Shown one piece after another: positions 1 to 39,970 of a stretch of DNA of 39,970 nucleotides (positions are counted from its first letter, which is position 1; every line of letters starts with the position of its first letter). The stretch is from a virus, in the UHGV virus genome UHGV-0404708. One strand, given 5' to 3'. The translations under genes and the position numbers were made by a program. The notes beneath the pieces are model-generated. The model made no database searches, was not told the origin of the DNA, and worked only from the letters and a program-made list of their open reading frames with translations.

Positions 1-148
1 AGAATATCTGAACACCACCGGGCTGGGTAATCACCCTGATCTGGTCAAAACGTTCGTGAAAATCGGAAAGGCGATGTCTGAAGATGGCATGGTCACCGGT
101 GGTAATGAAGGCCAGCGTAGTGCGGCCGAAGTGCTCTATGGCAAATAA
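1..148 (+). CDS. scaffolding protein, 3' portion (ORF enters from window start)
   Basis: Open frame from nt 2 to TAA 146-148 with no start in window; sits immediately 5' of the capsid gene; in frame with the ORF that runs off the window end (2 nt + 1 nt = codon AAA). Confidence 0.6.
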   Translation, partial: EYLNTTGLGNHPDLVKTFVKIGKAMSEDGMVTGGNEGQRSAAEVLYGK

Positions 149-13235: not shown

Positions 13236-13430
13236 GGAAGTGTTGTGTTTTTAATTATTTTGAGTGTGATAATTTCTGGTGGATTGTTATTTATTGACCG
13301 CTACAAATATTTTCTTAACCCTCAGACTCAAGCTATTTGCTGGTTCATCTTTGTTGTGCAGGGAGTAGTTCTTGTTGCAAGCCTTATTGAGGGGAGGCCT
13401 CTTATTTTTACTGGGTAAATAGGTGACTAC

Positions 13431-13727
13431 ATGCAAGCTATAGGATTCATTGTTTATATCGTCGTTGGTCTTTTTCAGTTGGCAGCAATTATGGCTGGGC
13501 TTGAATCATGGTGGGGATTGCACTGGATAATTGCAGCCCCCATCGCTTTCATCGTGAGCTATATTCCATTTGTTGGAGCGATTGTTGGTATGGTTGGCGC
13601 TGTGGATGTATGGCGGTGGGAGTGGTGGCAGGCTGGCCTTCTCTTCTTTGGTGGGATCATCTTTGCTATTGTCTGCGGTGGAATGTCATCATTTTTCGAA
13701 CGGCTATCATTCAGAAAAGGAACGTGA
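13431..13727 (+). CDS. small integral membrane protein
   Basis: 98 aa with 3-4 hydrophobic helices; SD AGGTGA; stop codon lies inside a GTGACATGTCAC palindrome. Confidence 0.6.
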   Translation: MQAIGFIVYIVVGLFQLAAIMAGLESWWGLHWIIAAPIAFIVSYIPFVGAIVGMVGAVDVWRWEWWQAGLLFFGGIIFAIVCGGMSSFFERLSFRKGT

Positions 13728-13735
13728 CATGTCAC
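13724..13735. repeat. GTGACATGTCAC palindrome, copy 1
   Basis: Perfect 12-bp palindrome containing the TGA stop of 13431..13727; directly 5' of a terminator. Confidence 0.8.
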
Positions 13736-13736
13736 A

Positions 13737-13760
13737 GGCCGCTTTCGCGGCCTTGTTTTT
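13737..13760 (+). terminator. rho-independent terminator
   Basis: GGCCGC-TTTC-GCGGCC followed by TTGTTTTT. Confidence 0.7.
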
Positions 13761-13920
13761 AACGAATGCCACCGCCGCCAGGGCGGGAATCCGCAGAACG
13801 CCCACCGCAGCGGGAGCCGTCAGCGGCAGTATCGCTGTCGTGCTGACAACGACCGGCAAAGGCCTGAGTTGAAGCTACCAGAGACAACAAAACGAACAGT
13901 GCAGCAAATGCTTTTTTCAT
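13759..13920 (-). CDS. small secreted peptide (Sec-type signal peptide, 31-aa Gly/Arg/Ser-rich mature part with 2 Cys)
   Basis: ATG at 13920 (in frame within track ORF 13759..13944); n-region MKK, hydrophobic core, AFA cleavage-like motif; weak SD; higher GC than neighbours. Confidence 0.35.
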   Translation of the reverse strand: MKKAFAALFVLLSLVASTQAFAGRCQHDSDTAADGSRCGGRSADSRPGGGGIR

Positions 13921-13991
13921 TTGAAATTTCCATCTATAAGCCACCTCAATGTGGCGTCAATGAGTGTAGCACTGACTTTTGTTTCATCCAC

Positions 13992-14012
13992 AAAAAAGCC
14001 CGCGCTGCGGGC
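13992..14012 (-). terminator. rho-independent terminator ending the minus-strand accessory operon
   Basis: Minus sense: GCCCGC-AGC-GCGGGC followed by TTTTTT; a few nt 3' of the stop of 14018..14650. Confidence 0.65.
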
Positions 14013-14017
14013 TTCTA

Positions 14018-14650
14018 TTAATGCAGTTTATCTTTGCTTATAACCAGTAGTCTGTGGGTATGCACATCTTTATCACTGCCCCAACAGAAATCAGCCCACT
14101 GGCTATAGAAATCATCCCATGATGTCATGAAGCTAAGAGGTCTATCTTCTTCAGAGCCATCTGAAACGTATACATTATATCCTGGGGTGTTTATAGCCCA
14201 AGAAATCATTCTTTCCCAGAATCTTCTCCCATCGATTGTTTGTTGCTCATCAGATACAACGATCGCATATTGCTCTAGGAAGAACTGAAAAAAAATCTGA
14301 GGCAAACCATGAACAGCACGGTCATGAATAACATTAGGCGTACGCCATACCATGATCTGCGTACATGTTCTTTTGGCTTCGACGATATCTTCCCGAAAGA
14401 TTAACTTAACCGCATACACCGTTTCTGGAGTATCGCTGGTAGTAATCATTCTGTAATGATCGCCATTACAAGATTTTACAAGGCGATAACCATAAGGTGT
14501 TGTGAATCCCGGAAGAACGAAATCAACCACACCTTTCGCTAAGTAGCTTTCGGTGTGACTAGTGTTCTTCTCAGACATGTTCAGTTTTCTATCGAAATCT
14601 GCTTCTGGGATAATGTATGGCATCGCTTTTCTTGTTGTATTTGTTCTCAT
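14018..14650 (-). CDS. hypothetical protein (unrecognised, accessory)
   Basis: Track ORF 14018..14662; ATG 14650 preferred (SD GGAGGA 5 nt upstream); AT-rich; own operator-like site upstream. Confidence 0.7.
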   Translation of the reverse strand: MRTNTTRKAMPYIIPEADFDRKLNMSEKNTSHTESYLAKGVVDFVLPGFTTPYGYRLVKSCNGDHYRMITTSDTPETVYAVKLIFREDIVEAKRTCTQIMVWRTPNVIHDRAVHGLPQIFFQFFLEQYAIVVSDEQQTIDGRRFWERMISWAINTPGYNVYVSDGSEEDRPLSFMTSWDDFYSQWADFCWGSDKDVHTHRLLVISKDKLH

Positions 14651-14708
14651 TTCGTCCTCCATGTTTGGCTACAGGACGCGTTTTGAAGGGAAGATTAAAA
14701 ATGCTTTC

Positions 14709-14723
14709 TTACCCTTGAGGTAA
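14709..14723. promoter_or_regulatory. operator-like palindrome TTACC-N5-GGTAA
   Basis: TTACCCTTGAGGTAA, exact; upstream of 14018..14650. Confidence 0.5.
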
Positions 14724-14760
14724 TAGTACGCTATTCACCCCCAGTCTGCAATCTGTACAG

Positions 14761-14787
14761 AATTATTTAAAGGCACATCCCTGTGCC
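14761..14787 (-). terminator. possible weak terminator between accessory genes
   Basis: Minus sense GGCACA-GGGA-TGTGCC followed by TTTAAATAATT; interrupted T-run. Confidence 0.35.
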
Positions 14788-14795
14788 GCCGCCCG

Positions 14796-15515
14796 TCAGA
14801 AGAACCCTGCCTTGTCGTTGATGTACTCCGCGTGCGTCTGGATATCACGCAGGCATTTGCTCACACCGACGATGTAGCAGAACATGGTGGTCAGCTCCGC
14901 CGCCGCGCCCGATACGTCGTGCCCGTCGTCCTGTAACTGGTTCAGCAGATTCATCAGCAGTGAGTTCTCAGTCAGGCCGAGAACACCAGACGGGGAATGA
15001 ATCAGGCTGCGGTAGCCGGGCTTCAGCGGGGCACTGTATTCTTTTTTGTCTTCCAGCTTGATCGCCTCCATAATGGCGGGCATGAATTTTTCAATTACCT
15101 GAGTGGCCTTTGATAAATCAGCTCCACCTGAGAGACGAACATCTCCACTGACATTTGCGGGTTTTCTGTCGAAGTAGCAATCTTCCAGTTTTTCGAAGAC
15201 CTCCCACGCTTTTTCAGTCTCAAGAATTTTCGCATGTCGTGCTGCACCGCGAGCGGTCCATAAGAAAAGATGACTTACTTTTGGTGCAATATTAAGCAAA
15301 CCTCTTTGAGAGGACTCGTTCTTAAATGCTCGTAATTCTTCGCCTGTCAGCTTGAAACAATGTTTTCCCTCAATGAATCGATCTGCATTTCGTTGATAGT
15401 TTTGACGAATCAGTTTGGGTTCTGTGTCATACAAATCAGCAAGCATTTCTGTAGTCATTACAGGGATGTTGCAATGAGTTGTTATCGGCAACTTATCAAT
15501 AGCTATATTACGCAT
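14796..15515 (-). CDS. ORF6N-domain protein with C-terminal domain paralogous to 16329..16586 (antirepressor-like)
   Basis: Track ORF 14796..15530; ATG 15515 preferred (SD GGAGG, 8-nt overlap with upstream stop); N-terminus fits the ORF6N/KilA-N-type DNA-binding pattern; C-terminal ~60 aa align with the 85-aa protein. Confidence 0.65.
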   Translation of the reverse strand: MRNIAIDKLPITTHCNIPVMTTEMLADLYDTEPKLIRQNYQRNADRFIEGKHCFKLTGEELRAFKNESSQRGLLNIAPKVSHLFLWTARGAARHAKILETEKAWEVFEKLEDCYFDRKPANVSGDVRLSGGADLSKATQVIEKFMPAIMEAIKLEDKKEYSAPLKPGYRSLIHSPSGVLGLTENSLLMNLLNQLQDDGHDVSGAAAELTTMFCYIVGVSKCLRDIQTHAEYINDKAGFF

Positions 15516-16014
15516 TTTCATTGCCTCCATCTTTCACGACGAAATAGCAATTATCTTTATAATCTAACTGGATGAACTTTATGTTTTCAGGGAGTTTTAC
15601 AGAAAGAGTTTTTGCACAAGCAAAACCAAAATCTGCGCCAGAAGCATCCATATACCTTAATAATTGTTTTAATGCTGAAGGAGAAAAAGTATCTACCTTC
15701 ACCTCAACAGGGTAACCATCTTTTGTTTTTAGGTCTGGTTGACCTGGTCCACCAAGTATTTCAGCGTTAAGGTATTTTGCTATTTCTGGATAAGCGTTGT
15801 ATTCAGAGCGTAGTTTTGCCTTGTTATCGACTGCTAGTTGCATAAGATGATCAAACAAATTGGTATCTAAATCTGCCCCTTCATCCCACATTCTATTTCT
15901 ACAGCTAATCAATTCACTGACCAGAGGTGCACTTTCTTGCCTTAGCATAAGAAGGAGTGGAGAATTAGAAATTAACCAATACAGATCGTCGTTTGAGATT
16001 TTTTGGCCTGGCAT
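15508..16014 (-). CDS. hypothetical protein, possible PD-(D/E)xK-like motif
   Basis: 168 aa; SD AGAGGT 7 nt before ATG; segment GQPDL...YPVEVK resembles a D...E-x-K nuclease motif (weak); translationally coupled to next gene. Confidence 0.6.
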   Translation of the reverse strand: MPGQKISNDDLYWLISNSPLLLMLRQESAPLVSELISCRNRMWDEGADLDTNLFDHLMQLAVDNKAKLRSEYNAYPEIAKYLNAEILGGPGQPDLKTKDGYPVEVKVDTFSPSALKQLLRYMDASGADFGFACAKTLSVKLPENIKFIQLDYKDNCYFVVKDGGNENA

Positions 16015-16328
16015 AGCGATACCTCTACTAGTAAGTTACCCACCACCGCAACGCCAATTGCTGGTGGTGAACTGGACAAGGTTGGCGTACCGGCCTAGTA
16101 GGTACCGGCGCACCTTTCGGTGCCCCTGCCCAGCCCACCATAATTCGGATATGACTGTGCTATACGCATAAAAAAACCACGTCTGGCGTGGTATGCGCCT
16201 ACTAGTAATCCGGGACGCCAATCCCGGCACTGGATTTTGCCAGTGCCCGATTACTATGGCACAAGAGGAGTGCGATGTAAATTTACCGCAAAGGTAAATA
16301 TAAGCACTCCACTTGGTAATTGCAAACC
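16015..16328 (-). ncRNA. heavily structured intergenic element (candidate ncRNA or cis-regulatory leader)
   Basis: 314 nt without convincing ORF between two minus-strand genes; at least five stem-loops, two with identical hexaloop, one GNRA-type loop, an internal hairpin plus T7 run, 8-bp direct repeat GTACCGGC x2. Confidence 0.35.
16170..16192 (-). terminator. intrinsic terminator-like hairpin inside the structured element
   Basis: Minus sense ACCACG-CCAGA-CGTGGT followed by TTTTTTT; T-tract itself flanked by complementary CGCATA/TATGCG. Confidence 0.4.
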
Positions 16329-16586
16329 TTATATGGTTTGTTTTCGTAATTGTTCGGCACAATAGTCGAGATGTGTTTGCAGATCCCGCATAGACATCTG
16401 TGAGCTGGTGACGTAGTTAATCAGTGCAGTCAGTTCGGCAAGTGGGCCATCGACATTAAATCCATCCTTATCGAGATCCCGGAGTAATTTCATCAAGTGC
16501 GATCCCTCCACCAGTGACCTGACGCCTCCCGGCGTGTGAATCCTTTCGGTAAATCCGTCTTCCAGTGGATAGTGATACCGCTGCAT
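16329..16586 (-). CDS. small protein (85 aa), paralog of the C-terminal domain of 14796..15515; LexA-controlled
   Basis: Track ORF 16329..16604 (TTG); ATG 16586 with SD GGAG 8 nt upstream; LexA box and sigma70-like promoter immediately upstream. Confidence 0.65.
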   Translation of the reverse strand: MQRYHYPLEDGFTERIHTPGGVRSLVEGSHLMKLLRDLDKDGFNVDGPLAELTALINYVTSSQMSMRDLQTHLDYCAEQLRKQTI

Positions 16587-16607
16587 CTTATCATCTCCAT
16601 GCAATAA

Positions 16608-16623
16608 CTGTATAAATATACAG
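16608..16623. promoter_or_regulatory. LexA (SOS) box
   Basis: CTGTATAAATATACAG; 20-mer AACTGTATAAATATACAGTA matches the E. coli consensus TACTGTATATATATACAGTA at 18/20. Confidence 0.8.
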
Positions 16624-16632
16624 TACCAAATA

Positions 16633-16661
16633 ATTTATTGTCTATCCAGCACGTTTTGCAA
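16633..16661 (-). promoter_or_regulatory. sigma70-like promoter upstream of the LexA box
   Basis: Minus sense -35 TTGCAA (16656-16661), 17-nt spacer, -10 ATAAAT (16633-16638); LexA box starts about 9 nt downstream of -10. Confidence 0.5.
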
Positions 16662-16662
16662 A

Positions 16663-16677
16663 TCACCTGAAAGGTAA
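16663..16677. promoter_or_regulatory. operator-like palindrome (one mismatch)
   Basis: TCACCTGAAAGGTAA; abuts the -35 of the LexA-controlled promoter. Confidence 0.4.
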
Positions 16678-16705
16678 TATCTATTCGTGTCCATGCTGTT
16701 TTTAC

Positions 16706-16715
16706 CCATATATGG
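16706..16715. promoter_or_regulatory. CCATATATGG palindrome (CCAYATRTGG family)
   Basis: Perfect 10-bp palindrome with T-rich flank, about 65 bp upstream of tail fiber ATG. Confidence 0.35.
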
Positions 16716-16781
16716 TTTTTCAGGTAATAAAATAACCCAGCATGCGGCGCAACGGGTGCTGCGACTATCTGGAGATTTAAA

Positions 16782-18803
16782 ATGACGGTCTCAACCGAAG
16801 TTGGCCACAACGAATACACTGGTAACGGCGTTACGACTACATTCCCTTATACATTCAGGGTTTTCGATAAATCTGATCTGGTAGTGCAGATAGTTGACCT
16901 TGAAGAGAATATCACTGTCCTGGTTCTTGATACCGATTACTCAGTAACCGGGGTGGGGGGATACAATGGTGGCAATGTAATGCTGAGGACAGCGTTAACT
17001 TCTGGTTATCGTATTTTTGTATCGCGTGAGCTGCCTGTTACGCAGGAAACAGATCTGCGCAATCAGGGAAAGTTTCTGGCAGAGGTGCATGAGGATGCAT
17101 TTGATAAGCTGACGATGCTTATTCAGCAAGTATTTTATAACCTGAGCAAGGTAATAAAAGTTCCTGAATCAGGGAACTGGTTGGTTCCAACAATTAGGTT
17201 AAGAAAGAATAAAATCTTTGCATGGGACGAAGAGGGAAATCCAATTGCTGTATCACCTGAATCAGGTAGTGCCTCCGATGTAATGATTGAGCTGGCAAAA
17301 TCATCCGGGGCTGGGTTGATTGGCACAACGTCGGGGGGGACCGTTCAATCAGTGCTGGATGACTGTCATGCAAGGCTCATCACATGTGAGCGCAACAGCC
17401 GGGTGGAAAATTTTTACACGCTGGCGGAAACCTGCACAGCGGAGCTTTTATCGCTGAATGCCCCGGAGGCATATGACAAATCCATTACGCTGACGGTCAA
17501 TGAGGAACTGACCACAGACTATACCGGTCCGGTCACAGGTCATTGCAGCATCGGTAATCCGCAGAACTACACCATTGCGATGTGTACGAGCACAACTCTG
17601 GAATATCAGGTTTCCTCGGTGGTACTGGAGAGTGACGGCACGTTCAGTTTCGCCAGAAGCTGGACGGGGGCTAAGTCTTTTAAACTGTATCGTACATCAA
17701 ATAACGGTCTGGTAACCGTCTGGGAAGATCCGCTGTGTATACGTTCTTACCGGATGCCATCGGATGCCGGAGACGAAACGGTAAGGGTAATGAAAGACCG
17801 TACGTACACCTACGACCAGGCGGTGTCGGCCATTGCCCTGATGGCGCAGGGGCACAGTCAGACTGAGCGTTTTGTTCGCGGGTTGTGTGCGATTGTGGGT
17901 AGTGGTGGTAGCGAGGGGAGTGTGCCTTTTTTCGTGAACCGCATGTCAGCGCAGACATCGTCACAGTATTACCGGACGGGAAACGCAGCGTGGGTGGCGT
18001 ATGCGCTGGCGTATTATCTGCTGAAATATCCGGACGGTGAAATGGCCGTTGTTGCCCGGGATAAACTGACGCAGTGCGCAGAATGGATTGAAACGTTCAG
18101 AGTGGCAGACAACGGAGATATTCGTTATGGGTTGTATACATCCGGTAGCGGACGGTATCTGGATGGCGTCTTTTACCCTGATTTTAAAGCAGACTGGTGC
18201 ACATCGGAGCACCAGTTTGATTTGTGGTTTCTGTTTGACCTGATGGGGCGGGTGGGCTTCACCGGCTACGCTGAAAAGGCGAAAGCCCTGGCGGATGCCA
18301 TTATGGAAAAGCTGTGGGTGGAGGATGAAGGGCGATTTTATGCCGGGATGCGAACCACCGGGCCTGACAAGGCCTCACCACTGGACTGTGCAAGCTGGGG
18401 CGGGCTGTTTGTGTCCAATATCGATATGGAAAAAGCCCGGCGGTGTTTTACTTACCTGGACAGATTCTGGTACGCCACGCACGATGCGACAGGGTACACG
18501 CCTTATCATCCGGAATATGGCTACCCGAATAAACAGCGGGGAGTCTGGGTGGAGGGCAGTGCAGGCGTGGCATTGCTGGCCCGTAGACTGGGAGATGATG
18601 CCACCGCGATGGATATTCTGGCGAGGCTGGCACCACTGCGCACACGTTATGGTTACATTGATTCAAGCGATTATCCAGATAATGATGACATGCCGCCGTG
18701 GCCCTCTTCCTGCAACACGGCCTGGATGATACTGGCATGCGATCCGCAGGGGTTCTGGAACGTTGGGGTAAGTAGTCTGTCTGGACGTTATTATAGGTAT
18801 TGA
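16782..18803 (+). CDS. tail fiber/tailspike with T7-type N-terminal attachment domain and a distinct C-terminal domain
   Basis: 673 aa; N-terminus (YTGNGVTTTFPYTF...DTDY) follows the T7 gp17 N-domain pattern; C-terminal ~380 aa Trp/Tyr-rich. Confidence 0.75.
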   Translation: MTVSTEVGHNEYTGNGVTTTFPYTFRVFDKSDLVVQIVDLEENITVLVLDTDYSVTGVGGYNGGNVMLRTALTSGYRIFVSRELPVTQETDLRNQGKFLAEVHEDAFDKLTMLIQQVFYNLSKVIKVPESGNWLVPTIRLRKNKIFAWDEEGNPIAVSPESGSASDVMIELAKSSGAGLIGTTSGGTVQSVLDDCHARLITCERNSRVENFYTLAETCTAELLSLNAPEAYDKSITLTVNEELTTDYTGPVTGHCSIGNPQNYTIAMCTSTTLEYQVSSVVLESDGTFSFARSWTGAKSFKLYRTSNNGLVTVWEDPLCIRSYRMPSDAGDETVRVMKDRTYTYDQAVSAIALMAQGHSQTERFVRGLCAIVGSGGSEGSVPFFVNRMSAQTSSQYYRTGNAAWVAYALAYYLLKYPDGEMAVVARDKLTQCAEWIETFRVADNGDIRYGLYTSGSGRYLDGVFYPDFKADWCTSEHQFDLWFLFDLMGRVGFTGYAEKAKALADAIMEKLWVEDEGRFYAGMRTTGPDKASPLDCASWGGLFVSNIDMEKARRCFTYLDRFWYATHDATGYTPYHPEYGYPNKQRGVWVEGSAGVALLARRLGDDATAMDILARLAPLRTRYGYIDSSDYPDNDDMPPWPSSCNTAWMILACDPQGFWNVGVSSLSGRYYRY

Positions 18804-20697: not shown

Positions 20698-20870
20698 CAT
20701 GGCATTTTTCATGGTACTGATTTTCGGTGACGGTATATAAAACGGTATGGTGAAAATCAAGTTGCGGAAAGTTGTTATCAGTCAATTGGTTATGTATGTC
20801 GTAAATAATTGAGTGGGAATGATTAACAGCTAACTCATAGCAAATCATTCCTATTCAGATGCCAACTCAA

Positions 20871-25197: not shown

Positions 25198-26015
25198 ACA
25201 TACATATCCTGTTTGCGTGCCCACTCAGGGCGTTTAATAATTTCCACGCCGCCCCATTCATCGCTGATGCGGCATTCGTGATAGGTATTCAGATCCCGGC
25301 GGAACAGAGCGTGCCCGGCATCGACATCCGGCGCATCCAGCTCGAACACGCGTACCGGATACCGACCACAATCAATGCTTTCGCTCACGGCAAGAAAGAA
25401 AAAACCATGCGGCTGACCAGTAACCCTCATTGCGCCTTCGCGGTACATTGCGTCCTGCACGTGGTAGCGGAATTCCTCGATGTGGCGTGCAAAACGGTCC
25501 ATATCTGCAACCTTTTTCACGTCGACGATCACGTTGTGCTCGTTCAGCCATTTGTCTGGACGAATTCGGCACAACTCACCCGTCTCTTCATCGTTCCAGT
25601 ACATTGATGCTTCGCAGTAACCAGGTGCTTCCAACATCCAGCGCGCCGCCGGATGAGCCATTGCGCTATCACGCATCAGCTCCAGTTTTCGCCACTGCTC
25701 GACATCAAGTACCGTAATACCCATATCCGCCACATCACGAAGAAATGCTTCTTCGTGAGCTTTACCTTGTTTTGTCCGACGATCGAATTTCGGTGAAACA
25801 ATGAAGCGTTTGTCGAACTCTCCAGGCTCCAGAAGCAGACAGTGCAATGCGGTTCCCATATCTAGTGCAGACTTTTTCTCTTCGTCTTCTGGTGCTGCCT
25901 GAACCCATTTAAGAAGCGCCGGATTCTTGGCTACCATGTCCAGTTGCGACTTACTCACGCCGTCACCGGCGTGGTAGTCTTCGTTGCTGATGTCGAAATA
26001 AATTCCCGGTTTCAT
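25194..26015 (-). CDS. recombination exonuclease (RecE/YqaJ-like), partner of RecT
   Basis: 273 aa; nuclease-like N-terminal region; immediately upstream of and coupled to RecT. Confidence 0.6.
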   Translation of the reverse strand: MKPGIYFDISNEDYHAGDGVSKSQLDMVAKNPALLKWVQAAPEDEEKKSALDMGTALHCLLLEPGEFDKRFIVSPKFDRRTKQGKAHEEAFLRDVADMGITVLDVEQWRKLELMRDSAMAHPAARWMLEAPGYCEASMYWNDEETGELCRIRPDKWLNEHNVIVDVKKVADMDRFARHIEEFRYHVQDAMYREGAMRVTGQPHGFFFLAVSESIDCGRYPVRVFELDAPDVDAGHALFRRDLNTYHECRISDEWGGVEIIKRPEWARKQDMYV

Positions 26016-26311
26016 GCCGCGTCCCTCTGTCCATCAAGCTGATCCGCCAGATCCCAGCGGGCGATAATTACCATTGCCTCGCGCCGGTAGGCATCCATTA
26101 GTTCTTCGAACTCAGGGCTGTCTTTAGCGGCCTCCAGTACTTCCTGGCGAACGCCTTTAACTGTTACAACGTCAAAAGTTGATGCCAGTTGATGAAGCCG
26201 GATACTCTCAATCAGTTCAACTTGTCGGTCATATAGCTGTTCTGACAGGCGGTAGTCCTTGTCGAATGCCAGCATGATTTTTTGAAGATTTTTCTGCTGA
26301 TTAACGTTCAT
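26012..26311 (-). CDS. hypothetical early protein
   Basis: Track ORF 26012..26326; ATG 26311 preferred (SD GGGAGGG); ATGA overlap with next gene. Confidence 0.55.
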   Translation of the reverse strand: MNVNQQKNLQKIMLAFDKDYRLSEQLYDRQVELIESIRLHQLASTFDVVTVKGVRQEVLEAAKDSPEFEELMDAYRREAMVIIARWDLADQLDGQRDAA

Positions 26312-26313
26312 TA

Positions 26314-26466
26314 TCAGCCCTCCCATATCTCGTTATCGTTGGCCACATCGCGAGCTTCTTTGCTGACGAAAGCCCACTTGATGCCTTCCTGTAAGGTGCG
26401 GAACTTCCAGCTCATGAATCCGCATGCAGTAACGCAGTACCAACCGTTGATGATTTTCCACTGCAT
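26314..26466 (-). CDS. small hypothetical protein (50 aa), first gene of leftward early operon
   Basis: Not in track (under 60 aa); ATG 26466 with SD GAGGT 8 nt upstream, immediately downstream of promoter/operator; translation MQWKIINGWYCVTACGF... Confidence 0.4.
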   Translation of the reverse strand: MQWKIINGWYCVTACGFMSWKFRTLQEGIKWAFVSKEARDVANDNEIWEG

Positions 26467-26485
26467 AACTTGTTACCTCGGTCTG

Positions 26486-26500
26486 TTACCGTTGAGGTAA
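26486..26500. promoter_or_regulatory. operator (OL-like), TTACC-N5-GGTAA
   Basis: TTACCGTTGAGGTAA exact; overlaps predicted start region of leftward promoter. Confidence 0.6.
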
Positions 26501-26501
26501 T

Positions 26502-26528
26502 AATTATGCGTATCTGGTTTGATGTCAA
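26502..26528 (-). promoter_or_regulatory. leftward early promoter (PL-like)
   Basis: Minus sense -35 TTGACA (26523-26528), 15-17-nt spacer, -10 ATAATT/TAATTA (26502-26508); flanked by two operators. Confidence 0.55.
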
Positions 26529-26547
26529 TAGATATGAGTTAAAAAAA

Positions 26548-26562
26548 TTACCCGTCAGGTAA
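26548..26562. promoter_or_regulatory. operator (OL-like), TTACC-N5-GGTAA
   Basis: TTACCCGTCAGGTAA exact; about 20 bp upstream of the -35. Confidence 0.6.
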
Positions 26563-26573
26563 TCAATCTGGCA

Positions 26574-26598
26574 ATAAAAAAGCCGCCAGAAGGCGGCT
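26574..26598 (-). terminator. rho-independent terminator after repressor gene
   Basis: Minus sense GCCGCC-TTCT-GGCGGC followed by TTTTTT. Confidence 0.7.
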
Positions 26599-26619
26599 TA
26601 CTTGCTGAAAACTATAGTT

Positions 26620-27204
26620 TTATTGTTTGCTTTTTTCGTTCTGGTTGATGACAAATTCAATGTAACTTTCGATCTTTGCTTTCTCGGTTTCGGGTAACAA
26701 TGCGTAGCGCGAGCGGTCATAGTTGATGGTCGCAGGGTCGTGCGGGTGAATCAGTAATTCATAGCCGTGACGCCCGAATGCGGATGCAACATTCTCCAGG
26801 GTGGAAATGGAAACGCTGACCTCATTGTTTAACAGGCGGCTGATTGTCACCTGGGCGACGCCGGATGCGCGGTGAAGTTTTCCCTGCGTTGAAAGGTCGC
26901 GGCTTTCGCTCATCCAGCGTTCCAGGTTGTGAGCCGCCAGCTGACCAATGTCGCTTGGGCCGACAGGCTGAAAACCTTCCTGAGAAAGCGAGCGATCGAT
27001 ATCAAGCCAGTTACGGGGTTTATTGGCGGCAGCTTCAATTTTTCGTGCAACCTGGTCGCCGATAACCTTCTTGCCAAGAGCCCAGCGGTTTACCAGATTT
27101 GCCTGAGTTCCAAGTTTTTCTGCCATCCGCGTCTGAACACCATTGAATTCACGGTCGATCAAGTCGTTGAGATTTTGCCTGCGGACGTCCTGGATACTTT
27201 TCAT
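26620..27204 (-). CDS. immunity repressor with two HTH-type segments, no autopeptidase domain
   Basis: 194 aa; HTH-like segments near aa 24-46 and 120-155; divergent from Cro-like gene across operator region; no Ala-Gly...Ser...Lys LexA-type cleavage module. Confidence 0.7.
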   Translation of the reverse strand: MKSIQDVRRQNLNDLIDREFNGVQTRMAEKLGTQANLVNRWALGKKVIGDQVARKIEAAANKPRNWLDIDRSLSQEGFQPVGPSDIGQLAAHNLERWMSESRDLSTQGKLHRASGVAQVTISRLLNNEVSVSISTLENVASAFGRHGYELLIHPHDPATINYDRSRYALLPETEKAKIESYIEFVINQNEKSKQ

Positions 27205-27259
27205 TTTCTGGAAAATCGCCTCATATATGAATCAGTAGATGATTCAATTTAAAGCAATA

Positions 27260-27274
27260 TTACCCAACAGGTAA
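27260..27274. promoter_or_regulatory. operator O1 (OR-like)
   Basis: TTACCCAACAGGTAA exact. Confidence 0.6.
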
Positions 27275-27276
27275 AT

Positions 27277-27291
27277 GCACCTCATGGGTAA
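27277..27291. promoter_or_regulatory. operator O2 (OR-like, one mismatch)
   Basis: GCACCTCATGGGTAA; centre 17 bp from O1. Confidence 0.5.
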
Positions 27292-27307
27292 CTATTCTTG
27301 ATTTTTG

Positions 27308-27322
27308 TTACCTTATGGGTGA
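27308..27322. promoter_or_regulatory. operator O3 (OR-like, one mismatch)
   Basis: TTACCTTATGGGTGA; in spacer of the predicted rightward promoter (-35 TTGTTA 27305-27310, -10 TATTAT 27328-27333). Confidence 0.5.
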
Positions 27323-27358
27323 ATATTTATTATCTGAAATAAATATCAGGCAATAGCT

Positions 27359-27589
27359 ATGAGCGATAACGGACATTTCGATTTCAAAAAGCACTGGCTT
27401 GCACTTACTCCGGATGAGCGTGAAGCCTTCGCACAGGAAGCCGGAACGACGAGTCACTATATCCAGACTCACTTAACAGGTAAGCGCAAAATGCCAGGTA
27501 AAGTATTGATGAATGGGCTTTTTAAAGCCTGTAAAACAAGACAATGGCTGCGCTCAAAAGCAGAACTGGCATACTTCTTCTACTCATGA
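27359..27589 (+). CDS. Cro/YdaS-like small DNA-binding protein
   Basis: 76 aa, divergent from repressor across tripartite operator; followed by terminator. Confidence 0.6.
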   Translation: MSDNGHFDFKKHWLALTPDEREAFAQEAGTTSHYIQTHLTGKRKMPGKVLMNGLFKACKTRQWLRSKAELAYFFYS

Positions 27590-27610
27590 TATCCAGCTAC
27601 AACCCTCTGT

Positions 27611-27634
27611 AGACCGCCACCCGGCGGTCTTTTC
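27611..27634 (+). terminator. rho-independent terminator (tR1-like)
   Basis: AGACCGCC-ACCC-GGCGGTCT followed by TTTT. Confidence 0.7.
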
Positions 27635-27644
27635 ATATCTATTC

Positions 27645-27659
27645 GTACCTCAAAGGTAA
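27645..27659. promoter_or_regulatory. operator-like palindrome (one mismatch)
   Basis: GTACCTCAAAGGTAA just after the terminator. Confidence 0.4.
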
Positions 27660-27739
27660 TAAAAAACCAAATCTGGTTGATCTTTTTTTTGTGTCAGCAC
27701 AAAATGACCGTAATCCCAATACTAATAACAGGGCTTACC

Positions 27740-27940
27740 ATGGAAATCATTACACGTATTGATGCCGCAAAGCGCGGACTTAAACGCTACTACACCGGAA
27801 AACCATGTAAGCATGGACATGACAGTGAACGCTGGGTTTACAACGGACACTGTGTTGAGTGCACCATGGAATCAAACCGTCGCATCAGGGCAGAGATTAA
27901 GCAGATCATGATTAATTCCTCCCCACAACACTCAAGCTGA
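27740..27940 (+). CDS. small Cys/His-rich protein (possible zinc-binding regulator)
   Basis: Track ORF 27677..27940 (TTG); ATG 27740; CKHGH...CVEC cluster. Confidence 0.45.
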   Translation: MEIITRIDAAKRGLKRYYTGKPCKHGHDSERWVYNGHCVECTMESNRRIRAEIKQIMINSSPQHSS

Positions 27941-27955
27941 TAGCGGAGATTAATC

Positions 27956-28789
27956 ATGAGCAGACATGCAACAGATTGGGCCTGGGAGACAGATCCAGGT
28001 AGCTCATCATTAAAGCTCATACTGCTCTCGATGGCTGACAGAGCCGATGAATATAACCTCTGCTACCCCAGCATAGAACGCCTCGTTAAAGACACTTGCC
28101 TGAATAAAAAAACCGTGCAGGCCGGGCTTATATCGCTCATGAAAATGGGGCTTATTTCAGATACCGGAGAGAGAAAGGGAGCGACAAAAAGAGTGCGGGT
28201 TTTCTCTCTTAATATAACCAAAAACGGGAACATTAAAGGCAACCTGGAGGGGGGCAATGAACCCGAAAACGGTAATGTTACCGAAAACGGGAATATACCC
28301 AAAAACGGGATGTTGAATGATCCCAAAAACGGGATGTTGAATGATCCCAAAAACGGGATCCAGAACCAGTCATATAACCAGTCATTTAACCAAGAGAGGG
28401 AGAGCAGGACAAAAACCGGGGATTCTGTTCCTCATGACCCCGGCGCAAACAACGCCGTGATGAATAACTTTGTTCCTCCTGGTTGGCCAGGGCAATTAGG
28501 CAAATTTGTCATGCATGAACAATGGCAGCCATCAGATGACTTTCTTCGGAAAAGCTCATTGCAGGGAATCTACCTGGACAGTCTGCCAACGGCACAGGAA
28601 CTTGCAGAGTTCAGAATTTACTGGATGGCTGAGGGTAAGGCATACCATCAGGCACAGTGGGAGCAGAAGCTGGCAAGGCGCATCCAGTTCTGTAGACAGA
28701 AATCAGGTGAAGTCAGAAAGAGCCTTGACTGGCATAACACTGACTGGATAGATGAGGTGTGGGATGAAATCAACTCCAGAACTTCTTAA
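27956..28789 (+). CDS. replication initiator/replisome organizer (O-like) with internal iteron-encoded repeats
   Basis: 277 aa; N-terminal HTH-like region; central tandem PKNGMLND repeats; C-terminal F..WQP-type segment; directly precedes P-like gene. Confidence 0.6.
   Translation: MSRHATDWAWETDPGSSSLKLILLSMADRADEYNLCYPSIERLVKDTCLNKKTVQAGLISLMKMGLISDTGERKGATKRVRVFSLNITKNGNIKGNLEGGNEPENGNVTENGNIPKNGMLNDPKNGMLNDPKNGIQNQSYNQSFNQERESRTKTGDSVPHDPGANNAVMNNFVPPGWPGQLGKFVMHEQWQPSDDFLRKSSLQGIYLDSLPTAQELAEFRIYWMAEGKAYHQAQWEQKLARRIQFCRQKSGEVRKSLDWHNTDWIDEVWDEINSRTS
28217..28360. repeat. iteron array (candidate origin of replication) inside initiator gene
   Basis: Six copies of AAAACGG(G/T) core starting 28221, 28266, 28284, 28302, 28326, 28350 (spacings 45, 18, 18, 24, 24), two forming an exact 24-bp tandem. 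Confidence 0.55.
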
Positions 28790-29583: not shown

Positions 29584-29598
29584 TTACCTATAAGGTAA
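29584..29598. promoter_or_regulatory. operator-like palindrome
   Basis: TTACCTATAAGGTAA exact. Confidence 0.5.
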
Positions 29599-36722: not shown

Positions 36723-36799
36723 TGGCGTGGCATGCAGGATTCGAACCTGCGACCAACCGCTTAGAAGGCGGTTGCTCTGTCTAACTGAGCTAATGCCAC
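36723..36799 (-). tRNA. tRNA-Arg (anticodon UCU)
   Basis: Minus-strand read GTGGCATTAGCTCAGTTAGACAGAGCAACCGCCTTCTAAGCGGTTGGTCGCAGGTTCGAATCCTGCATGCCACGCCA folds as cloverleaf: 7-bp acceptor, GCTC/GAGC D-stem, ACCGC/GCGGT anticodon stem with loop CU-UCU-AA, GCAGG/CCUGC T-stem with TTCGAAT loop, encoded CCA. Confidence 0.9.
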
Positions 36800-39422: not shown

Positions 39423-39970
39423 ATGAATTTATTTGAGCGTTTGCTGTATCGCCGTCTTTGCAATGAGCAACCAGTCGATGGTGGAGCAGCTCCAGCTGCG
39501 TCAGAACCGTCAGCGCCTGCAGGTGATAACCCTGCTCCAGTTGGTGATCCATCACAACAGGAAGGTGATAAGCCACAACCTGTTGCTGATGGCGATAAAC
39601 CTGCTGATGACAAAAAGCCTGAAAACGATAAGCAGGGTGAAAAAAAGGACGGCGATAAACCAGAGGGTGCGCCTGAGAAGTACGAGTTTCAGGCTGCCGA
39701 AGGCGTAGAGCTGGATACAGAAGCGTTGAAGGAATTCGAGCCGGTGGCGCGAGAACTTAACCTGACCAACGAGCAAGCGCAAAAGCTGGTTGATGCTTAT
39801 CCGAAGATTCTGGCAGGTGTTCAGCAGCGCCAGGCAGAAGCCTGGCAGAAAACAACCGAGCAGTGGGCTGCGGATGTAAAAGCTGACAAAGAAATCGGTG
39901 GCGACAAGTTGATTTCTAACCTTAGCGCCGCACAGCGTGCGCTTGACCAGTTCGGGACACCTGAACTCAA
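39423..39970 (+). CDS. scaffolding protein, 5' portion (ORF runs off window end)
   Basis: ATG 39423; 182 codons without stop to window end; acidic Asp/Glu/Lys/Pro-rich low-complexity N-terminus; in frame with 1..148. Confidence 0.6.
   Translation, partial: MNLFERLLYRRLCNEQPVDGGAAPAASEPSAPAGDNPAPVGDPSQQEGDKPQPVADGDKPADDKKPENDKQGEKKDGDKPEGAPEKYEFQAAEGVELDTEALKEFEPVARELNLTNEQAQKLVDAYPKILAGVQQRQAEAWQKTTEQWAADVKADKEIGGDKLISNLSAAQRALDQFGTPEL

What the first reader, a model, noticed from the sequence alone, without database searches (positions are those of the whole stretch)
26620..27204. Repressor lacks a recognisable autocleavage module, implying indirect (antirepressor-mediated) induction
The 194-aa repressor shows two HTH-like segments but none of the Ala-Gly cleavage site or Ser/Lys dyad spacing of LexA/CI-type S24 peptidase domains as far as I can read. 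Together with the LexA-controlled small gene at 16.6 kb this predicts a Gifsy/186-Tum-style induction circuit split between two distant loci.
Basis: inference. Interest (0 to 1): 0.55.

Follow-up and report, generated by a model that had tools for sequence, protein, structure and literature searches.

The report
Non-cleavable phage repressor with LexA-controlled antirepressor
This circuit has already been described, with a crystal structure, in the sister phage SPC32H, so it is ordinary.

Summary
The window is a phiV10/epsilon15-like E. coli podophage (genus Uetakevirus). The ORF at 26620-27204 (minus strand, 194 aa) is its immunity repressor.

- **Observation confirmed.** The protein has two HTH-like segments, no Peptidase_S24 match at E<=1, and no Ala-Gly or Cys-Gly dipeptide.
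- **Repressor homology.** Residues 1-190 align with the solved Salmonella phage SPC32H repressor Rep (PDB 5D50_A, E=3.5e-42).
- **Antirepressor homology.** The 85-aa gene at 16329-16586 (minus strand) is about 87% identical to SPC32H Ant, which is chain E of the same Rep-Ant complex (E=3.5e-46).
- **LexA control.** The gene sits behind the only near-consensus LexA box in the window (16606-16625, 18/20). The box overlaps the predicted -10 hexamer and is conserved in six of seven relatives.

The predicted split, LexA-gated antirepression circuit is therefore supported, but it is the published SPC32H mechanism (Kim & Ryu 2013; Kim et al. 2016). It is analogous to 186 Tum and the Gifsy antirepressors, not homologous to Tum.

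I also found three further features:
- Repressor-type operators (TTACC-N5-GGTAA) are dispersed across the genome.
- A second cassette resembles the P1 immI region: isrK/C4 antisense RNA, then a 168-aa ORF, then a 244-aa ORF6N protein whose C-terminus is an Ant paralog.
- attP lies between ant and rep, so the two genes sit at opposite ends of the prophage.

Novelty is low.

The parts
26620..27204 (-). rep: 194-aa immunity repressor. N-terminal HTH DNA-binding domain (about residues 1-72), a middle HTH-like domain (about 89-155, dimerisation in the homolog) and a C-terminal tail (about 156-194, tetramerisation and Ant binding in the homolog). No S24 peptidase.
   Evidence: Domain roles are taken from PMC9986798. 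Repressor function is supported by the 99.5%-identical ORF21 of phage vB_EcoP_ZX5, whose overexpression abolished free phage.
26580..26599 (-). Terminator-like hairpin just downstream of rep
26486..26562 (.). Two perfect TTACC-N5-GGTAA operator-like palindromes (26486-26500 and 26548-26562), 62 bp apart. They bracket a leftward promoter-like site (TTGACA-17-AATTAT, 26528-26500) for the recE/recT operon.
   Evidence: The homologous sites in epsilon15 are annotated as 'repressor' binding sites.
27260..27322 (.). Three operator-like sites in the rep/cro-like intergenic region: 27260-27274 (0 mismatches), 27277-27291 (2 mismatches) and 27308-27322 (1 mismatch). The third overlaps the rightward promoter-like site at 27305-27333.
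   Evidence: Spacing is 17 and 31 bp here, against 17 and 30 bp in epsilon15 and SPC32H.
27359..27589 (+). cro-like 76-aa gene, divergent from rep
   Evidence: phrog_35, transcriptional repressor, E=5.6e-13
16329..16586 (-). ant: 85-aa small antirepressor, homolog of SPC32H Ant
   Evidence: 5d50_E, E=3.5e-46; 87% identity to SPC32H ant; same position next to the tailspike gene as in SPC32H
16606..16625 (.). LexA box AACTGTATAAATATACAGTA (18/20 to consensus)
   Evidence: conserved in relatives
16615..16644 (-). Promoter-like site for ant (TAGACA-18-TATATT). Its -10 hexamer lies inside the LexA box.
16663..16677 (.). Operator-like site TCACCTGAAAGGTAA in the ant/tailspike intergenic region
   Evidence: conserved in all seven relatives; annotated as a repressor site in epsilon15
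16253..16297 (-). Promoter-like site (TTTACA-17-CATAGT with an upstream TG), abutted by the operator-like site TTACCGCAAAGGTAA (16283-16297). It marks the start of the second antirepressor cassette.
   Evidence: conserved in ZX5, Tyrion and TL-2011b
16170..16259 (-). isrK-like leader RNA with a terminator, overlapping the a1/b1 target sites of C4
   Evidence: isrK 68.1 bits against a gathering score of 50; c4-a1b1 45.1 against 46.7
16060..16145 (-). C4-type antisense RNA
   Evidence: 76.7 bits against a gathering score of 45; its loop covaries with its targets
16015..16059 (-). b2/a2 target sites. The seven bases of a2 contiguously complementary to the C4 loop (CUAGUAG) end 10 nt before the AUG of the 168-aa ORF, and the following GAGG Shine-Dalgarno bases lie in that gap.
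15508..16014 (-). 168-aa ORF in the position that icd holds in P1 and orf45 holds in Gifsy-1. It overlaps the start of the next gene by 23 nt. Function unknown.
   Evidence: phrog_18738, unknown function
14796..15530 (-). 244-aa large antirepressor candidate: an N-terminal ORF6N domain plus a C-terminal domain paralogous to Ant (43% identity over 74 aa)
   Evidence: phrog_1760, anti-repressor, E=1.3e-97. ZX5 ORF4 carries a nearly identical C-terminal domain, and its overexpression lowered lysogen counts about 1000-fold.
20808..20824 (.). attP core ATTGAGTGGGAATGATT. It lies between ant and rep, so the two genes end up at opposite ends of the integrated prophage.
   Evidence: core sequence taken from PMC9782041

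Best explanation
This is the SPC32H-type Rep/Ant lysis-lysogeny switch of epsilon15/phiV10-like podophages.

In the lysogen:
- Rep binds through its N-terminal HTH domain to TTACC-N5-GGTAA palindromes. These flank its own gene and sit at most other transcription-unit starts.
- Rep binds as a tetramer, assembled through its middle and C-terminal domains.
- Rep has no protease domain, so RecA cannot make it cut itself.
- Host LexA sits on a near-consensus box over the -10 hexamer of the ant promoter. ant is 10 kb from rep in the phage map and about 29 kb away in the prophage.

On DNA damage:
- LexA cleaves itself and the 85-aa Ant is made.
- Ant binds the Rep C-terminal domain and splits tetramers into dimers that bind DNA weakly.
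- Lytic promoters then open.

What is shown here:
- homology of both proteins to the two chains of the solved complex;
- absence of S24;
- the LexA box and its overlap with the promoter;
- conservation of that arrangement;
- enrichment of the operator motif.

What is taken from the literature on the homologs: that Rep is inactivated by Ant binding rather than by cleavage, and the tetramer-disassembly mechanism.

What is inferred:
- that this E. coli Rep (43% identical to SPC32H Rep) behaves the same way;
- that the motif is the Rep operator;
- that a second cassette, gated by a Rep operator and a C4 antisense RNA, supplies a larger Ant-domain protein as a second input or a reinforcement.
For: - No S24 domain and no Ala-Gly or Cys-Gly dipeptide in Rep.
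- Rep residues 1-190 align with 5d50_A 'Repressor' at E=3.5e-42, and Ant residues 2-84 with 5d50_E 'Anti-repressor protein' at E=3.5e-46.
- The window has one LexA box at 18/20 to consensus, against 0.00 expected. It overlaps the -10 hexamer of the only good minus-strand promoter-like site upstream of ant.
- The box, the ant gene and an adjacent operator-like site are conserved in ZX5, TL-2011b, SPC32H, epsilon15 and Tyrion. The box is partly degenerate in one Klebsiella phage.
- ant occupies the same position as in SPC32H, divergent from the tailspike gene.
- The best-conserved parts of Rep are the N-terminal HTH (53%) and the C-terminal tail (54%), against 33% for the middle domain. The putative recognition helix N-L-V-N-R-W is invariant in five phages. 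This fits a shared operator and a shared, highly conserved Ant.
- The operator motif occurs 15 times at <=1 mismatch, against 0.70 expected. It sits at positions homologous to the sites annotated 'repressor' in epsilon15.
- Literature on mechanism: PMC7380047, PMC9638917, PMC9986798.
- The ZX5 repressor is 99.5% identical, and its overexpression abolished free phage and cut lysis-gene transcripts by more than 99.9%.
- phiV10-species prophages were induced 21- to 47-fold by a DNA-damaging microcin.
Against: - No experiment addresses the small Ant, or whether Rep is cleaved, in a phiV10-type E. coli phage.
- Rep is only 43% identical to SPC32H Rep, and 33% in the middle domain.
- I could not read the two primary papers (Kim & Ryu 2013; Kim et al. 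2016). Mechanistic details come second-hand from papers that cite them, and the statement that Rep stays intact during the SOS response rests on my recollection of the 2013 abstract.
- I found no binding data here assigning the TTACC-N5-GGTAA motif to Rep. The epsilon15 record carries these sites as 'repressor' annotations without stating a basis.
- ZX5 lysogens release 10^7 PFU/mL spontaneously. Inputs other than the SOS response may therefore matter.
- The only antirepressor tested in ZX5 was the large Bro-N protein, not the small one.
Confidence: 0.85

Rival explanations
1. The large 244-aa ORF6N protein with the Ant-like C-terminus is the main inducer, not the small LexA-controlled Ant. 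Its synthesis is set by the isrK/C4 RNA switch, as with P1 immI or Gifsy-1 isrK-orf45-anrP. Induction would then be governed largely by signals other than the SOS response, and the small Ant would be auxiliary.
For: - ZX5 ORF4 carries a nearly identical C-terminal domain, and its overexpression lowered lysogen counts from 10^9 to 10^6.
- The isrK and C4 RNAs score above their Rfam gathering thresholds.
- The C4 loop covaries with its a1 and a2 targets across four phages.
- In Gifsy-1, the isrK locus and AnrP drive prophage induction in stationary phase.
- ZX5 shows high spontaneous induction.
Against: - SPC32H, epsilon15 and Klebsiella phage BUCT711 lack this cassette entirely yet keep rep, ant and the LexA box, which is degenerate in BUCT711. 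The small Ant is the conserved core.
- The cassette's N-terminal domain is swapped between phages (ORF6N here, Bro-N elsewhere), as expected of an accessory module.
- An operator-like site abuts the cassette's predicted promoter. If it is a Rep operator, the cassette would be silent in a lysogen until Rep is already inactivated.
Confidence: 0.1
2. The 194-aa protein is not the phage's master repressor. It would be an accessory XRE-type regulator or an antitoxin, as in the annotation 'plasmid maintenance system antidote protein VapI' in phage BP9. Its lack of an S24 domain would then say nothing about induction.
For: - One record annotates it as VapI.
- There are weak NCBIfam hits to HigA and HipB antitoxins, at E of about 1e-3 to 0.1 and far below their cut-offs.
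- RefSeq calls it only 'helix-turn-helix domain-containing protein'.
Against: - It is homologous over its full length to the SPC32H protein deposited and annotated as 'Repressor'/rep.
- It occupies the classic immunity position, divergent from a cro-like gene, with clustered palindromic operators on both sides.
- The 99.5%-identical ZX5 protein shuts down lytic gene expression when overexpressed.
- No toxin gene lies next to it.
Confidence: 0.03
3. Rep is inactivated directly by RecA*, or by a host protease, at a non-canonical site without an S24 fold. The small LexA-controlled protein would then have another role.
For: None found here. It remains formally open only because no cleavage assay exists for this phage.
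Against: - No S24 domain, no Ala-Gly or Cys-Gly dipeptide, and the whole chain is accounted for by helical DNA-binding and oligomerisation domains.
- Citing papers state that the SPC32H homolog is inhibited by Ant through protein-protein interaction. From my recollection of the Kim & Ryu 2013 abstract, which I could not read here, Rep is not cleaved during the SOS response.
Confidence: 0.02

Closest known systems
Salmonella phage SPC32H Rep/Ant antirepression system (Kim & Ryu 2013, J Virol 87:11775; Kim et al. 2016, PNAS; PDB 5D4Z and 5D50)
   Same: - Same phage genus (Uetakevirus).
- Rep is homologous over its full length (E=3.5e-42) and Ant is about 87% identical.
- The ant gene is in the same place, divergent from the tailspike gene.
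- A LexA box overlaps the ant promoter in both.
- Both use the TTACC-N5-GGTAA operator-like motif at homologous positions.
   Different: - Rep is only 43% identical, and 33% in the middle domain.
- The host is E. coli.
- The window also carries a roughly 3-kb insert downstream of ant, next to the upstream structural gene. It holds the isrK/C4 RNAs, a 168-aa ORF and a second, larger Ant-domain protein, none of which SPC32H has.
Escherichia phages phiV10, vB_EcoP_ZX5, HEMP4 and TL-2011b
   Same: - Essentially the same phage. Rep is 99-100% identical, Ant 96-99%, and the immunity region is 97-98% identical at the DNA level.
- The ZX5 repressor and large anti-repressor were tested by overexpression.
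   Different: - The accessory region between the structural genes and ant is mosaic; no record covers more than 73% of 13200-16800.
- The large antirepressor here has an ORF6N N-terminus, where ZX5, TL-2011b and Tyrion have Bro-N. An extra 168-aa ORF replaces the short 'ash family' ORF of ZX5.
- In those records the small ant is annotated only as 'hypothetical protein'.
Coliphage 186 Tum and the Gifsy-1/-3 and Fels-2 antirepressors (Shearwin 1998; Lemire 2011)
   Same: Same logic: a non-cleavable repressor, and a LexA-repressed antirepressor gene outside the immunity region that inactivates the repressor by binding.
   Different: - No detectable sequence relationship. The 85-aa Ant has no significant Pfam match and no DinI/Tum-type hit.
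- From my recollection of the Kim & Ryu abstract, SPC32H Ant was described as structurally distinct from the antirepressors of sipho- and myoviruses.
P1/P7 immI region (c4-icd-ant) and the Gifsy-1 isrK-orf45-anrP locus
   Same: This applies to the second cassette only.
- A C4-type antisense RNA is preceded by a1/b1 targets within an isrK-like leader and followed by a2/b2 targets at the ribosome-binding site of a leader ORF.
- That ORF overlaps an antirepressor gene.
- An operator for the primary repressor lies at the cassette promoter.

   Different: - The antirepressor carries a C-terminal domain paralogous to SPC32H-type Ant.
- The leader ORF is 168 aa, against 45 aa for Gifsy-1 orf45 and about 73 aa for P1 icd (from memory), and its function is unknown.
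- No regulatory experiment exists for this cassette.
Lambda CI, P22 C2 and LexA-type autocleaving repressors (Peptidase S24)
   Same: N-terminal HTH DNA-binding domain, the same position in the immunity region, and coupling of induction to the SOS response.
   Different: No S24 domain and no cleavage-site dipeptide. The C-terminal part consists of helical oligomerisation domains instead.

Membership tests
SPC32H-type Rep/Ant antirepression system | Repressor homologous over its full length to SPC32H Rep (DNA-binding domain, dimerisation domain, C-terminal tetramerisation and Ant-binding domain) | tested here: met
   phmmer against the PDB: 5d50_A at E=3.5e-42, query residues 1-190. Invariant residues occur in all three regions across five phages.
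SPC32H-type Rep/Ant antirepression system | Repressor lacks an S24 autocleavage domain and a cleavage site | tested here: met
   No Peptidase_S24 hit at E<=1. No Ala-Gly or Cys-Gly dipeptide.
SPC32H-type Rep/Ant antirepression system | Small antirepressor (about 86 aa) homologous to SPC32H Ant | tested here: met
   5d50_E at E=3.5e-46. 87% identity to the annotated ant of SPC32H.
SPC32H-type Rep/Ant antirepression system | LexA-binding site overlapping the ant promoter | tested here: met
   An 18/20 match to the LexA consensus at 16606-16625, unique in the window. It overlaps the -10 hexamer TATATT. The full CTGT-N8-ACAG core is conserved in 6 of 7 relatives and reads ATGT in the Klebsiella phage.
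SPC32H-type Rep/Ant antirepression system | ant located outside the immunity region, divergent from the tailspike gene | tested here: met
   attP at 20808-20824 separates ant from rep in the prophage.
SPC32H-type Rep/Ant antirepression system | Ant physically binds Rep and disassembles the tetramer, and Rep stays intact during the SOS response | not testable with these tools
   Known only for the SPC32H homologs.
LexA/CI-type autocleaving repressors (Peptidase S24) | C-terminal S24 domain with a Ser/Lys dyad | tested here: not met
   No S24 match in Pfam or NCBIfam. The C-terminal half is homologous to the helical domains of 5d4z/5d50.
LexA/CI-type autocleaving repressors (Peptidase S24) | Ala-Gly or Cys-Gly scissile bond in the linker | tested here: not met
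   Neither dipeptide occurs anywhere in the 194 aa.
186 Tum-type antirepressors | Sequence homology to Tum. From memory, Tum has a DinI-like C-terminal part. | tested here: not met
   The 85-aa protein has no DinI or Tum hit in Pfam at E<=0.1. PHROGs places it in phrog_450.
186 Tum-type antirepressors | LexA-repressed gene whose product inactivates a non-cleavable repressor | tested here: inconclusive
   The LexA box and promoter overlap are met. Inactivation of the repressor is inferred from the SPC32H homologs only.
P1 immI-type C4 antisense control of an antirepressor (second cassette) | C4 antisense RNA | tested here: met
   Rfam RF01695, 76.7 bits against a gathering score of 45.
P1 immI-type C4 antisense control of an antirepressor (second cassette) | Upstream a1/b1 and downstream a2/b2 targets complementary to the C4 loops, with a2 at the ribosome-binding site of the leader ORF | tested here: met
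   c4-a1b1 scores 45.1 bits, just under its gathering score of 46.7, and isrK scores 68.1 against 50. The a' loop and the a1 and a2 targets covary in three specificity types across four phages. The a2 complementarity ends 8-10 nt before the AUG.
P1 immI-type C4 antisense control of an antirepressor (second cassette) | Downstream antirepressor gene translationally coupled to the leader ORF | tested here: inconclusive
   The two ORFs overlap by 23 nt. The downstream protein matches ORF6N and phrog_1760 'anti-repressor'. Coupling and activity were not tested.

The most novel reading that the evidence does not exclude
The phage runs two antirepressors of one protein family against the same repressor domain, each with its own gate.
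- The small Ant is gated by host LexA and so responds to DNA damage.
- The ORF6N-Ant fusion is gated by a Rep operator plus a P1-like C4/isrK antisense RNA switch, whose specificity loops differ between sister phages.

The second gate could work in three ways: as a feed-forward lock that makes induction irreversible once Rep starts to fail, as a decision element during infection, or as a strain-specific means of cross-inducing or resisting co-resident Uetakevirus prophages. To my knowledge, this pairing of an SPC32H-type switch with a P1 immI-type switch, sharing an Ant domain, has not been described. The ZX5 study tested the large protein but did not recognise the small Ant, the LexA box or the RNAs.
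Probability: 0.4. Interest if true: 0.4.

Novelty: already known. Interest (0 to 1): 0.2.

Why it matters
The practical value lies in annotation. This immunity region occurs in about 10% of complete E. coli genomes (539 of 5,426). Its repressor is labelled only 'helix-turn-helix domain-containing protein'. The small antirepressor is 'hypothetical protein' in nearly all E. coli phage records and 'unknown function' in PHROGs.

Recognising these genes as SPC32H-type Rep and Ant would explain how these common prophages respond to DNA-damaging antibiotics and bacteriocins. This includes phiV10, which is used as an O157 reporter and typing phage. It also shows how to make non-inducible or obligately lytic derivatives: delete ant, or mutate the LexA box.

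The additional C4-gated antirepressor cassette is a modest lead on SOS-independent or cross-prophage induction.

Tried and rejected
**S24 peptidase.** I looked for it with Pfam and NCBIfam at E<=1 and found nothing. A direct scan found no Ala-Gly or Cys-Gly dipeptide.

**Other LexA-box candidates.**
- CTGT-N8-ACAG also matches at 1164 and 36592.
- Neither comes within 3 mismatches of the 20-mer consensus.
- The spacer at 1164 is GC-rich, and 36592 lies inside an ORF next to the tRNA gene. I dismissed both as chance.

**Antitoxin reading.** The VapI/HigA annotation of the repressor rests on hits far below their cut-offs, and no toxin gene is adjacent.

**Defence-system reading.** PADLOC gave only ORF6N-domain hits to a candidate system (PDC-S05) for the 244-aa protein, and nothing for the 168-aa and 214-aa proteins.

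**Primary literature.**
- I tried to read the SPC32H papers and the epsilon15 genome paper (PMC3807360, the PNAS DOI, PMC4983836, PMC2698709). None is held.
- Mechanistic statements are therefore cited from papers that quote them.

**RNA duplex energies.** Whole-molecule RNAduplex energies for C4 against its targets were not informative for a1/b1 (51 of 500 shuffles scored as well). I relied on loop-target covariation instead.

**Not run.** I skipped structure prediction, fold search and the large protein-database searches. Full-length sequence homology to a solved complex already answers the question.
Full report
**What the window is.** The immunity region at 26000-28000 is 97-98% identical to Escherichia phages phiV10, vB_EcoP_ZX5, PAS61, HEMP4 and others. 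At the protein level the 194-aa ORF is 99-100% identical to their putative repressors. It is 76-78% identical to those of Enterobacter phages Tyrion and BUCT554, and 43-45% identical to those of Klebsiella Uetakeviruses and Salmonella phages epsilon15 and SPC32H. The window is therefore a phiV10-like member of the genus Uetakevirus.

**Checking the observation.** The ORF at 26620-27204 on the minus strand is exactly as described.
- Pfam finds HTH_3 at E=1.2e-9, with two stretches and the best at residues 106-147. HTH-type hits also cover residues 20-61.
- No Peptidase_S24 hit appears at E<=1, and NCBIfam agrees.
- The sequence contains no Ala-Gly or Cys-Gly dipeptide.
- Residues 1-190 align with PDB chain 5d50_A, 'Repressor', at E=3.5e-42. 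Residues 89-190 align with 5d4z_A. The whole chain is thus accounted for by a known fold that has no S24 domain.

**The partner gene.**
- The pattern CTGT-N8-ACAG occurs three times in the window. Only the copy at 16608-16623 is a real LexA box.
- The 20-mer at 16606-16625 (AACTGTATAAATATACAGTA) matches the consensus at 18/20. It is the only match within 3 mismatches, against 0.00 expected.
- It overlaps the -10 hexamer of a minus-strand promoter-like site, TAGACA-18-TATATT.
- It lies 19 bp upstream of an 85-aa ORF at 16586-16329.
- That protein matches PDB chain 5d50_E, 'Anti-repressor protein', at E=3.5e-46. It is 87% identical to the annotated ant gene of SPC32H.
- In SPC32H, ant sits in the same place, divergent from the tailspike gene.
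- An alignment of the ant upstream regions of seven phages shows the LexA box and the ribosome-binding-site region conserved. One Klebsiella phage has a degenerate box, with CTGT changed to ATGT.

**Mechanism from the literature.** I could not obtain the primary papers, so I rely on papers that cite them.
- In several Salmonella prophages, including SPC32H (Kim & Ryu 2013), LexA self-cleavage leads to synthesis of an antirepressor. [quoted passage not shown]
- Rep binds DNA as a tetramer, and the dimer binds weakly. [quoted passage not shown]
- Rep has an N-terminal DNA-binding domain, a middle dimerisation domain, and a C-terminal domain that both tetramerises Rep and binds Ant (PMC9986798).

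Two further results bear on phiV10-type phages directly.
- In ZX5, overexpressing the 99.5%-identical repressor abolished free phage and reduced holin and endolysin transcripts by more than 99.9% (PMC9782041).
- phiV10-species prophages in gut E. coli were induced 21- to 47-fold by a DNA-damaging microcin.

**Internal consistency of the transfer to this phage.**
- Against SPC32H Rep, the N-terminal HTH is 53% identical, the C-terminal tail 54%, and the middle domain only 33%.
- The putative recognition helix N-L-V-N-R-W is invariant in five phages.
- This fits a shared operator and a shared, highly conserved Ant (64-99% identical across the genus).

**Operators.**
- The palindrome TTACC-N5-GGTAA occurs 15 times at <=1 mismatch, against 0.70 expected.
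- Epsilon15 and SPC32H show the same enrichment. In epsilon15 the sites coincide with features annotated 'protein_bind: repressor'.
- In the window the sites form a triplet between rep and the cro-like gene, at 27260, 27277 and 27308. The third overlaps the rightward promoter-like site.
- A pair 62 bp apart lies downstream of rep, at 26486 and 26548. It brackets a leftward TTGACA-17-AATTAT promoter-like site.
- A second pair, also 62 bp apart, lies at 29584 and 29646.
- Single or double sites lie upstream of the terminase genes, the portal operon, int, the ant/tailspike intergenic region and the accessory genes.

Assigning this motif to Rep is an inference. It suggests that one repressor acts at many dispersed operators, much as C1 does in P1.

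**Geometry.** The attP core reported for ZX5 is present at 20808-20824, between ant and rep. In the integrated prophage, rep lies about 6 kb from one end and ant about 4 kb from the other, roughly 29 kb apart. The 'two distant loci' remark is therefore more apt for the prophage than for the phage map.

**A second antirepressor cassette, outside the finding's coordinates.** The following elements lie downstream of ant on the minus strand, in order.
- An operator-like site (16283-16297) abuts a promoter-like site, TTTACA-17-CATAGT.
- An isrK-like leader with a terminator overlaps the a1/b1 targets of C4 (16170-16259).
- A C4 antisense RNA follows at 16060-16145, scoring 76.7 bits against a gathering score of 45.
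- The b2/a2 targets come next. The stretch of a2 complementary to the C4 loop ends 10 nt before the AUG of a 168-aa ORF of unknown function, and the GAGG Shine-Dalgarno bases lie in that gap.
- That ORF overlaps by 23 nt a 244-aa protein. Its N-terminus is an ORF6N domain. Its last 74 residues are 43% identical to the small Ant, and it matches phrog_1760 'anti-repressor' at E=1.3e-97.

Comparison with relatives (for the RNAs):
- ZX5, TL-2011b and Tyrion carry the same RNAs. Their large protein has the same C-terminal domain but a Bro-N N-terminus.
- SPC32H, epsilon15 and Klebsiella phage BUCT711 lack the cassette.

The C4 a' loop and both of its targets covary:

| Phage | C4 a' loop | Target(s) |
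|---|---|---|
| window | CCUACUAG | CUAGUAGG (a1); CUAGUAG(A)GG (a2) |
| ZX5, TL-2011b | CCUUUUAG | CUAAAAGG (a1 and a2) |
| Tyrion | CCUUUGUAG | CUACAGAGG (a1); CUACAAAGG (a2) |

This is the organisation of P1/P7 immI, known to me from the literature and from the Rfam family descriptions. It is also that of the Gifsy-1 isrK-orf45-anrP locus. ZX5 ORF4, the Bro-N version of the large protein, lowered lysogen counts about 1000-fold when overexpressed.

**Verdict.** However, this is the published SPC32H-type Rep/Ant switch in a very common E. coli prophage, present in 539 of 5,426 complete genomes. The epsilon15 RefSeq record already cites 5d50_A for its repressor.

The comparison with Gifsy and 186 Tum holds for the logic of the circuit, but Ant is not a member of the Tum family.

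Two things are mildly new:
- An annotation gap. The small ant is 'hypothetical protein' in nearly all E. coli phage records and 'unknown function' in PHROGs.
- The co-occurrence of a LexA-gated Ant with a C4-RNA-gated Ant-domain fusion. I have not seen this pairing described.

Noticed in passing
window 14796-16297 (minus strand): A P1 immI / Gifsy-1 isrK-like cassette. Its elements, in order: an operator-like site with a promoter, an isrK-like leader holding the C4 a1/b1 targets, a C4 antisense RNA, a2/b2 targets at the ribosome-binding site, a 168-aa ORF of unknown function, and a 244-aa ORF6N protein whose C-terminus is a paralog of the small Ant. The C4 loop covaries with its targets across four phages, giving three specificity types.
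   Followed up: partly
window, 15 sites including 14709, 16283, 16663, 20958, 26486, 26548, 27260, 27308, 27645, 29584, 29646, 33962, 33980, 37122: The palindrome TTACC-N5-GGTAA is strongly enriched (15 sites against 0.70 expected) and sits at nearly every transcription-unit start. Two pairs are exactly 62 bp apart, a spacing also seen in epsilon15 and SPC32H. This suggests one repressor acting at many dispersed operators, possibly with DNA looping by the tetramer.
   Followed up: partly
window 20808-20824: The attP core ATTGAGTGGGAATGATT, identical to that reported for phage ZX5, which integrates at the 3' end of guaA. It lies between ant and rep, so the two genes sit at opposite ends of the prophage.
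   Followed up: yes
window 36723-36799 (minus strand): A tRNA-Arg (anticodon TCT) gene between the terminase and portal regions. SPC32H and ZX5 have one in the same place.
   Followed up: no
window 14018-14662 (minus strand) and 15508-16014 (minus strand): Two accessory ORFs of 214 aa (phrog_1349) and 168 aa (phrog_18738), with no Pfam or PADLOC match. The 214-aa gene has its own operator-like site at 14709-14723. The region 13200-16800 is mosaic among otherwise near-identical phages; no record covers more than 73% of it.
   Followed up: partly
window 16329-16586 and 26620-27204; E. coli RefSeq genomes: An annotation gap. The immunity region is present in 539 of 5,426 complete E. coli genomes with the repressor named only 'helix-turn-helix domain-containing protein'. 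The small antirepressor is 'hypothetical protein' in nearly all E. coli phage records, and its PHROG family (phrog_450) is marked 'unknown function', although the solved SPC32H homolog exists.
   Followed up: yes
window 1-142 and 39433-39970: By comparison with the gene order in ZX5, the window appears to start and end inside the same head-protease gene. It therefore looks like a circular permutation of one complete phage genome of about 40 kb.
   Followed up: no
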